Assembly: GCA_964016885.1 (NCBI GenBank)
Contig: OZ024763.1
Span: 2,604,001 to 2,668,000 of the forward strand
DNA: 64,000 nucleotides
Reading direction: 5' to 3'
Origin: Eledone cirrhosa
Taxonomy: Eukaryota
A program made the translations under genes and the position numbers. Shown here piece after piece: positions 24,193 through 48,682 of the stretch (the stretch's first letter is position 1; every line of letters begins with the position of its first letter). A model generated the notes under the pieces. That model did no database searches. It was not told the DNA's origin and worked only from the letters and a program-made list of their open reading frames with translations.

Positions 24193-24606
24193 ATTGAGAG
24201 AGAGAGAGAGAATCTGCGATGCTGAGACCTGGGAGATCACTAATCATGGGAGTACTCAATACACGGGTAGATGCTGAGTGGGTTTAGAGATATGTAGAAT
24301 CCCAACCGCGACACCAAGCAGTTTTAGCTTGTGTGTTCAGCAATACTTTTCAAGGTTTGTTTCAAAGATTCTGTTAAGGGTGAAAGCAGCGATTCTTTGC
24401 TTAAACTCTAATCTGTTATTTTAATAAATATTTGCTCTACAGGTGTTTATATTTATATATATTTTATATATTTATGTATATAATCCTTATCAAGCCCTCT
24501 TCGGATTTTAGTCTTCACATTTATTATTATTAGTATATATATATATAGTAATAATAATAAATTTATAAGAACCGTAGAGCAAATATTTATTAAAATAACA
24601 GATTAA

Positions 24607-24657
24607 AGTTTAAGCAAAGAATCGCTGCTTTCGCCCTTAACGGGATCTTCTGAAACT
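24607..24657 (-). ncRNA. Hammerhead-like motif with CAGAAGA core (family H2)
   Basis: Minus strand AGTTT-CAGAAGA-TCCC GTTAA GGGC-GAA-AGCA-GCGATTCTT-TGCT-T|AAACT. Confidence 0.65.
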
Positions 24658-24699
24658 AACAAAGTCAATCTGTAAACGCAGACGTGGATATTTTTTGTT

Positions 24700-24750
24700 A
24701 GTTTCAGAAGATCCCTTTAAGGGTGAAAGCAGTGATTCTTTGCTTAAACT
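24700..24750 (+). ncRNA. Hammerhead-like motif with CAGAAGA core (family H2)
   Basis: AGTTT-CAGAAGA-TCCCT TTA AGGGT-GAA-AGCA-GTGATTCTT-TGCT-T|AAACT. Confidence 0.65.
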
Positions 24751-24789
24751 TTAATCTGTTATTTAAATAAATAAATATATATATATCAA

Positions 24790-37332: not shown

Positions 37333-37436
37333 ATATATATATATGAAGTATTTCCGTAGAAAGGCTAAAGGAAGGGAGAGTGCTCTATGTATGCTACAGA
37401 GCTATTTAATTATGTAATAAACAACACAATTCAATT

Positions 37437-37511
37437 ATTCCATTTACCAAAGGTTTCACGAAGACAGGCAAACTCAACACAGATGTCTGAAATCATTCAT
37501 CAGATTAAAAT
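37437..37511 (-). ncRNA. Type I hammerhead motif (family H4) with inverted half copy at ~37519-37600
   Basis: Minus strand ATTTTAAT-CTGATGA-ATGA...AGACA...TGTCT TCGT-GAAA-CC TTT GG-TA|AATGGAAT. Confidence 0.7.
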
Positions 37512-37598
37512 TTTCCTTCATCTCTGTTGAGCTCTCCTGTCTTTGTGAAACCTTTGGTAAATAGAATAATTGTATTGTATTGTTTATTACATAATTAA

Positions 37599-46401: not shown

Positions 46402-46599
46402 ATATATAGCTTTCACCGTATTTTTGACTAAAGGAATTTTAGCCTGATAATGGGGTTTAGAACCCTCAGATAAATGGAAAAAGATGAGTATTGATGTACA
46501 TGTACGTCAATACTCATCTTTTTCCATTTATCTGAGGGTTCTAAACCCCATTATCAGACTAAAATTCCTTTAGTCAAAAATACGGTGAAAGCTATATAT
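46402..46599. repeat. Near-perfect ~200-bp spacerless palindrome
   Basis: Centre GTACA|TGTAC at 46500/46501; arms differ at about 2 positions; related single arms at ~46675-46743 and ~46870-46968. Confidence 0.95.
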
Positions 46600-47955: not shown

Positions 47956-48079
47956 TACAAAAGAAATTATTAAAATAATATATATATACATATATATTAT
48001 TTTATAATATATATATATATATAAATTAATAAAATAATGAATAAACAAAGAAACAGTTCCTTATATTAAAAAAAAATTC

Positions 48080-48217
48080 ATCATTTTACGATCATTTCTA
48101 GGATATATATGTGTTAGTGTTGGTATGCATATTCTATAGATCTATGTAAAATATTTATACAAACTATCAGAGGGAATATACATACCTACACATATATATG
48201 TTGTCTTCAGAAATAAT
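48080..48217 (-). ncRNA. Hammerhead motif with ~100-nt stem II (family H5, left arm)
   Basis: Mirror of 48219-48348. Confidence 0.6.
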
Positions 48218-48218
48218 G

Positions 48219-48348
48219 ATTATTTCTGAAGACAGCATATATATGTATAGGTATGTATATTCCCTCTGATAGTTTGTATAAATATTTTACATAGAATATG
48301 CATACCAACACTAACACATATATATCCTAGAAATGATCGTAAAATGAT
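48219..48348 (+). ncRNA. Hammerhead motif with ~100-nt stem II (family H5, right arm)
   Basis: ATTATTT-CTGAAGA-CAGCATATATATGT...ACATATATATCCTA-GAAA-TGATCG-TA|AAATGAT; 7-bp stem I, palindromic GATC loop, GUA site. Confidence 0.65.
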
Positions 48349-48682
48349 GAATTTTTTTTAATATAAGGAACTGTTTCTTTGTTTATTCATTATTTTATTA
48401 ATTTATCTTGACTCTGTTTTCCGTTAATTTTCACCGAAAATAGTTTTTGAATGCATCTTCTCTTTTCATGATATCTGGATTACATTGAGTTCTTCATACG
48501 GATTGGACACTCCCGTAAATTTTTGGTAGATTTATCTACATATATATATATATATATATCAGAAAGGGTGTGGTAAAATACCAGGTGGACAATAACCCAC
48601 CAGAGTACTCGATACTAGCTGTCGAAATGACCGGAGCTCAGCTGTTGGGGCCCTGAATCTTTTCATATATATTATATTATCT

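What the first reader, a model, noticed from the sequence alone, without database searches (positions are those of the whole stretch)
48021..48406. Giant palindrome whose axis sits exactly at the 5' edge of two back-to-back hammerheads with ~100-nt stem II
The symmetry centre (48218) is one base before stem I (ATTATTT). Each arm reads CTGAAGA, then a ~97-nt domain (~105 nt in the left arm) closed by ATATATATGT/ACATATATAT, then GAAA-TGATCG-TA and AAATGAT. A stem II this long would be missed by standard descriptors. The first stem II pair is a C-A mismatch and the region is AT-rich, so chance cannot be excluded, but the palindromic GATC loop and 7-bp stem I match the pattern of the other families.
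Basis: partly seen in the sequence, partly recalled or inferred. Interest (0 to 1): 0.7.

Follow-up and report, generated by a model that had tools for sequence, protein, structure and literature searches.

The report
Jumping-gene hairpin with oversized hammerheads
This palindrome is one of over a thousand similar two-armed stubs of a known kind of jumping gene; each arm holds a hammerhead self-cutting RNA motif with an unusually long arm (cutting untested), and the stubs turn at the motif's first letters, likely because the element's RNA starts there.

Summary
Observation confirmed, and it is not chance. The hammerhead is a family trait (3,791 exact copies of a 23-mer). Its 80-116-nt stem II recurs in six families, with two-sided base-pair changes, and C·A at its base is fixed (78 of 78). 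The axis is not special to this locus: 1,109 palindromes turn within about 15 nt of the core, controls elsewhere give 7 and 10. A non-templated G before the first stem I base and an initiator-like TCATT suggest this is the capped 5' end of the RNA; 29 of 29 scorable palindromes have one short and one tailed arm, fitting priming on both DNA strands. This copy is slightly decayed (TGATCG for CGATCG). No RNA data or cleavage test. The scan has noted long stem II hammerheads, double priming and RNA-start axes before, in other families. New variant of a known kind.

The parts
48006..48020 (.). (TA)n target, left side
   Evidence: sequence; other copies end at the same base before (TA)n
48021..48217 (-). 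Left arm: terminal repeat (pLTR) from +1 to the near (short) 3' end
48080..48217 (-). Type I hammerhead motif, left: stem I 48217-48211 / 48086-48080, core 48210-48204, stem II 48203-48099 (105 nt; the G-C pair at its base is lost by G>A), GAAA 48098-48095, predicted cut after 48087
48218..48218 (.). Axis base G/C between two arms that both begin at +1; either the natural C of one arm or a likely cap-derived G of the other. This exact joint is the commonest in the genome
   Evidence: 45 of the first 100 listed, counted by eye
48219..48348 (+). Type I hammerhead motif, right: stem I 48219-48225 / 48342-48348, core 48226-48232, stem II 48233-48329 (97 nt; 8-nt deletion near its tip), GAAA 48330-48333, TGATCG 48334-48339, predicted cut after 48341
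48251..48258 (+). GTATGTAT at +33, a splice-donor-like or promoter-like motif inside stem II, base-paired; mirror copy at 48185-48178 on -
   Evidence: invariant in 29 of 29 hand-picked rows while its partner strand varies; GTATGT kept in 67 of 80 unbiased copies
48219..48406 (+). Right arm up to the near (short) 3' end
48407..48539 (+). One-sided 133-nt tail up to the far 3' end; in full-length copies it is part of the 5' leader before the ORF
48540..48560 (.). (TA)n target, right side
   Evidence: sequence

Best explanation
The palindrome is a short head-to-head insertion of two terminal repeats of a Hydra-clade Penelope-like retroelement in a (TA)n tract, likely made when the element's protein primed copying on both DNA strands at two fixed sites in its uncut RNA and each copy ran off the likely capped 5' end, which is the first base of hammerhead stem I. 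Shown: the family, its full-length parent with RT and C-terminal GIY-YIG, the two fixed 3' ends, the clustering of 5' ends and axes at stem I, the excess of G before +1, and the paired long stem II. Inferred: transcription start at the A of TC-ATTAT, cap origin of the G, double priming, end-joining of the two copies. Because the RNA would begin with the ribozyme, start-proximal signals (downstream promoter region, donor-like GTATGT) can only lie in stem II, which likely explains its length. The hammerhead would cut as a dimer through the CGATCG palindrome, perhaps with protein help. This genomic copy is likely inert: both arms have TGATCG, and a read-through transcript is predicted to fold into one long duplex.
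For: Parent element: pLTR + tail, leader of 481-503 nt, RT, GIY-YIG, pLTR in L037 and L038. Axis: 1,109 palindromes with the two cores 30 nt or less apart, 251 for subfamily A; spacer 7-20 nt in 48 of the 50 listed, 0-6 nt in none (by eye); controls 7 (axis in stem II) and 10 (axis about 11-26 nt upstream; 3 in the tool's reversed control). Unbiased first 100 places: 29 begin within 12 nt of the core-side TTT, 2 at 13-75 nt, 69 keep natural upstream sequence, 8 of these with a SINE inserted (sorted by eye from the print-outs). G at -1 in 10 of 29 free joints against 11% G nearby, p about 0.02; genome-wide 284 palindrome arms have G at -1 and 217 the natural C. An untemplated 5' G is read as a copy of the cap in L1 work (PMC9341517, passages). 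One short plus one tailed arm in 29 of 29 scorable palindromes (33 examined, 4 unscorable); the anole element cuts and extends both strands, starts at two internal sites and uses uncut RNA (PMC11167929, parts 1-2 of 4). Structure: 94.9% of 942 cells paired, 37 cells with two-sided change against 12.9 in shuffles; stem II folding z of -5.8, -7.5, -4.6, -4.0, -2.6 for family majority sequences A, B, C, D, F. Several short-stem families have an initiator-like TCACT with GGTAYGT about 39-45 nt later and the hammerhead further downstream; two such copies begin at that motif (by eye).
Against: No RNA evidence at all: no RNA run holds the stretch. About 120-130 of the 284 G arms are this locus's own joint type, where the G can be the mirror of the other arm's natural C; A and T at -1 were not counted genome-wide; the G test on held loci is modest (19 of 29 are not G). 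Many arms begin a few bases before or after +1. The 10.1-11.1 position is C·A, not the usual G-C. The monomer hammerhead fold is 3.0-9.5 kcal/mol above the predicted minimum in all 7 sequences tried. GTATGT is absent from the long-stem families D, E, F, so it cannot explain the long stem in all. Control patterns are 11-mers at other positions and subfamilies differ there, so the fold enrichment is rough. Pfam gave no RT or GIY-YIG hit; the assignment rests on motifs.
Confidence: 0.7

Rival explanations
1. The axis marks a DNA nicking hot spot (ATT-rich site cut by the element's own endonuclease or another retroelement's), with the palindrome formed by fold-back repair or self-priming at the nick, not by an RNA end.
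For: 9 of 100 unbiased copies carry an independent tRNA-type SINE insertion whose 3' end meets ATTATTT, with different duplication lengths. The anole endonuclease prefers ATT near its own pLTR (PMC11167929). Self-priming was proposed for head-to-head junctions (PMC3846280, passages).
Against: The SINE ends in AATTAT-like letters at most of its 55 other held ends, so its joint position follows from its own tail. A nick does not explain the non-templated G or the strict one-short-one-tailed rule (29 of 29).
Confidence: 0.15
2. The long stem II is mainly a retained spliceosomal intron (or its 5' part): GTATGT at +33 is a donor, and splicing shortens or removes the ribozyme arm.
For: GTATGTAT is invariant in 29 of 29 rows while the partner strand changes only to G·U; Penelope has an intron 46 nt after its start (PMC2377424, passages); the leader holds 12 upstream ATGs; genomic intron retention is normal for these elements.
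Against: No precisely spliced genomic copy (0 matches; 0 of 4); no donor at that place in families D, E, F; the insert folds as a continuous rod across the candidate intron; only 67 of 80 unbiased copies keep GTATGT.
Confidence: 0.1
3. The motif is a dead relic: the core is kept only because the family is young, and the long arm abolished cutting.
For: Copies are 93-95% alike; C·A at the base of stem II; reverse transcription clearly crossed the uncut site in every copy; published Penelope hammerheads are slow (PMC4209133).
Against: Core, stem I pairing and palindromic hexamer persist across six families whose stem II sequences are partly unrelated.
Confidence: 0.05

Closest known systems
Inverted, 5'-truncated pLTR structures with a one-sided tail in endonuclease-bearing Penelope-like elements (PMC3846280, passages; PMC8557442, passages and Fig. 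2 legend)
   Same: Head-to-head terminal repeats, palindrome at the junction, tail on one side only, microsatellite target.
   Different: Tail is 133 nt, not 30-40; the junction is pinned to hammerhead stem I and often carries an extra G, which I did not find described.
Hydra-clade Penelope-like elements, e.g. Hydra-1_Obim (PMC8557442, section 11 and supplementary rows)
   Same: RWR (for RWK), DKT, CxCX5C linker, no CCHH, CxxC and CxH near the end, (TA)n insertion, type I hammerhead.
   Different: Element about 4.4 kb with an Asn-rich stretch (published ones mostly under 3 kb); stem II 97-116 nt against 23 nt in Hydra-1_oBim and at most about 53 nt in the File S2 rows I saw (not all rows were shown).
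Minimal and dimer-type hammerheads of metazoan Penelope-like elements (PMC4209133, parts 1-2 of 4)
   Same: Type I, short palindromic stem III, enlarged stem II, an extra base after the core, pairs on opposite strands.
   Different: Stem II more than ten times longer than their 7-8 bp helix region; G10.1-C11.1 is replaced by C·A; a C·Y mismatch follows at the fourth position.
PAc (Poseidon of the green anole) priming mechanism (PMC11167929, parts 1-2 of 4)
   Same: Two internal start sites downstream of the hammerhead define the tail; both strands are cut and extended; uncut RNA is the template.
   Different: Shown in vitro for another clade; the 5' joint was not addressed in the parts I read.

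Membership tests
Type I hammerhead ribozyme | Core CUGANGA, GAAA and NUH cut triplet in type I order | tested here: met
   (GAAA 75 of 78; U-H 76 of 78; the 5' core was fixed by the search pattern)
Type I hammerhead ribozyme | Stem I pairing with compensatory change | tested here: met
   95.6% paired, U-A/C-G/U·G at one pair; ATTGTTT/AAACAAT in families D-F
Type I hammerhead ribozyme | Stem II helix | tested here: met
   4 of 12 outer pairs with two-sided change; folding z-scores
Type I hammerhead ribozyme | Usual G10.1-C11.1 closing pair (highly conserved, exceptions known: U-U in PMC3088659) | tested here: not met
   C·A in 78 of 78 (the C was fixed by the pattern); A-U in family D, A·C in F
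Type I hammerhead ribozyme | Stem III, short and palindromic for dimer cleavage | tested here: met
   CGATCG in 70 of 78; this copy has the weaker TGATCG
Type I hammerhead ribozyme | Self-cleavage at the predicted site | not testable with these tools
   no RNA reads held
Endonuclease-bearing Penelope-like element | RT plus C-terminal GIY-YIG ORF between two pLTRs in related copies | tested here: met
   L037, L038, L039 by motif reading; Pfam gave no hit
Endonuclease-bearing Penelope-like element | Inverted 5'-truncated copy with one-sided tail | tested here: met
   29 of 29 scorable palindromes
Hydra clade | RWK-type and DKT motifs, CxCX5C linker, no CCHH, CxxC and CxH | tested here: met
   RWR and DKT translations; linker, CRLC and CNH; likeness to Hydra-1_Obim by eye
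Hydra clade | (TA)n insertion | tested here: met
Hydra clade | Placement in an RT tree | not tested
   no tree built; length about 4.4 kb exceeds the general under-3-kb description
Non-LTR retrozyme | Head-to-tail tandem non-coding monomers | tested here: not met
   arms are head-to-head and belong to a coding parent
Spliceosomal intron within stem II | Spliced joint in RNA or precisely spliced genomic copies | tested here: inconclusive
   0 matches, 0 of 4; no RNA coverage

The most novel reading that the evidence does not exclude
In this lineage the retroelement's capped RNA begins with hammerhead stem I, and the roughly 100-nt stem II has swallowed the start-proximal cassette (downstream promoter signals and, in three families, a splice donor held in a helix). 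Ribozyme folding and donor use would then exclude each other, giving a switch between spliced mRNA and intron-retaining template, and the thousand-odd palindromes are a genomic record of double priming with run-off at the cap.
Probability: 0.2. Interest if true: 0.75.

Novelty: new variant of a known kind. Interest (0 to 1): 0.42.

Why it matters
How Penelope-like elements finish their 5' ends and why they form head-to-head repeats is open (self-priming on antisense RNA was proposed in PMC3846280). More than a thousand joints pinned to one position, an extra G and a strict short-plus-tailed rule make a double-priming, run-off model testable with existing in vitro systems. The long stem II shows that length-limited descriptors miss thousands of hammerheads here. 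The single locus is an ordinary, slightly decayed member.

Tried and rejected
Chance AT-rich match: rejected. MicroRNA precursor: Rfam matches at 48163-48275 are far under their thresholds (49.7 against 81 bits) and follow from the palindrome. Short intron from GTATGT to CATAG or to CCTAG: no precise genomic copy (one search covers only the ATACATACC subfamily); not conserved in D-F. RNA evidence: the search returned only small-share RNA runs; three runs of unrecorded type cover the stretch like genomic DNA and show no GT-AG joint, the one recorded RNA run laid nothing; four guessed-RNA runs gave only scraps: no evidence either way. Pfam on two ORF pieces: nothing useful. DPE-like RGACG at +28 is present in family C and in L136 but not in A, B, D or F (counted by eye), so not used as support. 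The 'E' bin was mixed (4 of 7 rows were family A) and its z-score is not used. One search had a bookkeeping error (10 of 100 rows) and was replaced, in which 6 palindromic rows were mis-scored by the script and sorted by eye. In one search three rows were dropped as duplicates (L049 wrongly: it is another place) and two had no joint. Lünse et al. 2016 (PMC5785218) is not held; I saw only its citation, and it and the unseen rows of File S2 could hold longer stem II examples.

Full report
Observation. The palindrome is as described: arms of 197 and 188 nt around G48218, differing by two substitutions and two indels, each with a type I hammerhead layout and a 105- or 97-nt stem II. The arms fold at z -2.4 and -4.5. 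No hammerhead was among the Rfam matches displayed. The element is larger than marked: the right arm continues through a 133-nt tail to 48539, and (TA)n flanks both ends.

Family. The arm is a young repeat (851 candidates, 40 scored, mostly 93-95% alike); a 23-mer from it occurs 3,791 times in the 3.0-Gb genome. Two near-full copies, L037 and L038, read pLTR with hammerhead and tail, a 481-503-nt leader, an RT and GIY-YIG frame broken by frameshifts, and a second pLTR. The protein has RWR, DKT, a CxCX5C linker, no CCHH, and CxxC and CxH near the end, the marks given for the Hydra clade (PMC8557442 section 11); it resembles Hydra-1_Obim by eye. No tree was built and Pfam was blank. The host looks like an octopus; that is my inference from this likeness and recalled SINE features, not from any record.

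Is the hammerhead real? In 80 unbiased copies the 3' half was found in 78; GAAA is intact in 75, U-H in 76, CGATCG in 70, and the C·A at the base of stem II in 78. On 29 hand-picked rows of families A, B and C, 94.9% of 942 cells pair and 37 show two-sided change against 12.9 in shuffles and at most 10 in slid controls (relatedness inflates such counts). Three further families (D, E, F) have different stem II sequences of about 76-105 nt with the same stem I and hexamer; F has CCGAAGA as core. In 15 clusters of long- and short-stem hammerheads from all held sequence, 13 representatives have C at the fourth stem II position facing C or U, then a longer helix; the window copy fits this plan. Stem II here is far longer than in the published Hydra rows I saw (23 nt in Hydra-1_oBim, about 53 at most); searches found no paper on such arms, but one key paper was not held.

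This copy. Both arms have TGATCG (1 of 78 in the family sample). It weakens the predicted dimer helix (-6.4 against -10.0 kcal/mol) and favours a pairing that buries the core (gap 8.6-8.7 against 3.0 kcal/mol for an intact copy). The left arm has lost the G-C pair at the base of stem II. A transcript across both arms is predicted to pair 372 of 386 nt. The locus is likely inert.

The axis. 1,109 palindromes place two cores within 30 nt, 251 in subfamily A, with spacers of 7-20 nt in 48 of the 50 listed. Equivalent patterns for an axis in stem II or just upstream give 7 and 10. Among the first 100 places, 29 begin within 12 nt of the core-side TTT and 2 in the next 63 nt; 69 keep natural upstream sequence, 8 of them interrupted by a SINE (sorted by eye). 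The natural base before ATTATTT is C, yet G stands there in 10 of 29 free joints (background 11%, p about 0.02) and in 284 palindrome arms genome-wide against 217 with C. Of the first 100 listed, 45 and 55 are this locus's own joint, which is ambiguous; the rest of the G arms are not explained by mirroring. An extra 5' G is taken as a copy of the cap for L1 (PMC9341517), and TCATT resembles the initiator TCACT noted in Penelope pLTRs (PMC3846280). I infer that the RNA starts at stem I. Nineteen of the 29 free joints are not G, and starts scatter by a few bases, so this is likely, not shown.

Mechanism. All 29 scorable palindromes have one short and one tailed arm (33 examined). The anole protein cuts and extends both strands, starts at two internal sites downstream of the hammerhead, and uses uncut RNA (PMC11167929). 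The simplest model: both strands of a (TA)n target are primed, one at each site; each copy crosses the uncut ribozyme, runs off the 5' end, and the two ends are joined. The rival of a DNA nicking hot spot has some support from SINE insertions at the same motif (9 of 100), but the SINE ends in similar letters elsewhere.

Why a long stem II? In several short-stem families an initiator-like TCACT is followed by GGTAYGT at about +39 to +45 and the hammerhead lies further on (by eye), much as in Penelope, whose intron starts 46 nt after the start (PMC2377424). In A, B and C, GTATGTAT lies at +32 to +34 inside stem II, unchanged in 29 of 29 rows while its partner strand drifts to G·U pairs. That fits a sequence signal housed in stem II. 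It is absent in D, E and F, no spliced genomic copy was found, and no RNA was available, so it stays a hypothesis.

Earlier scan notes report long stem II hammerheads, the C·C mismatch, double priming and RNA-start axes in other families. They are unchecked AI notes and not support; my start-site note and the counts came before I saw. Searches of the notes by sequence and for the extra-G idea gave nothing.

Papers seen: PMC4209133 parts 1-2 of 4; PMC11167929 parts 1-2 of 4; bioRxiv 10.64898/2026.07.22.740005 part 1 of 5; PMC8557442 passages, section 11 and supplement rows; PMC3846280, PMC2377424, PMC6765202, PMC3088659, PMC9341517, PMC13282606 passages only.

Verdict. Real feature, known kind of structure, ordinary locus; the oversized stem II and the pinned, G-marked axis make it a new variant with a testable mechanistic point. 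Interest 0.42.

Noticed in passing
L037:8971-9146 (- strand); also L005, L016, L020, L074, L077, L078, L152, L153, L157, L199, L200, L218, L226: A tRNA-type SINE (type recalled, not tested) is inserted independently at the stem I 5' strand in 9 of 100 unbiased copies, with duplications of about 3-20 nt.
   Followed up: partly
window 8285 (-) and 8391 (+): Back-to-back hammerheads of a short-stem family (36-37 nt stem II); its copies start about 67 nt upstream of the core (L055, L023), so the axis position is family-specific.
   Followed up: partly
window 5848 (-), 6077 (-), 7829 (-), 36899 (-), 56942 (+): Further type I hammerheads with 28-31-nt stem II, 3 bp plus C·C plus helix, palindromic hexamer; most have GGTAYGTC about 35-45 nt upstream of the core.
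   Followed up: partly
L135, L140, L141, L144, L128, L121: Long-stem family with CCGAAGA (U4 to C) in the core in all copies seen; palindromes also turn at stem I (L140, L126, L134).
   Followed up: partly
L024:1040-1500, L013, L015: The 3' untranslated region holds a diverged tandem duplication of about 230 nt that ends in a broken hammerhead 5' half (CTGAGGT).
   Followed up: no
L038, L039, L034 ORFs: An Asn/Thr/Lys-rich stretch lies between RT and endonuclease, like the N-rich inserts described in rotifer Penelope elements (PMC3846280).
   Followed up: no
window 46402-46599, 24605-24752, 37427-37577: Three more long palindromes, two beside (TA)n, without a hammerhead by my descriptor; probably stubs of other elements.
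   Followed up: no
L027 (- strand, core near 1934 on that strand), L102, L140: Type I hammerhead-like motifs with 45-53-nt stem II from other repeat families.
   Followed up: no
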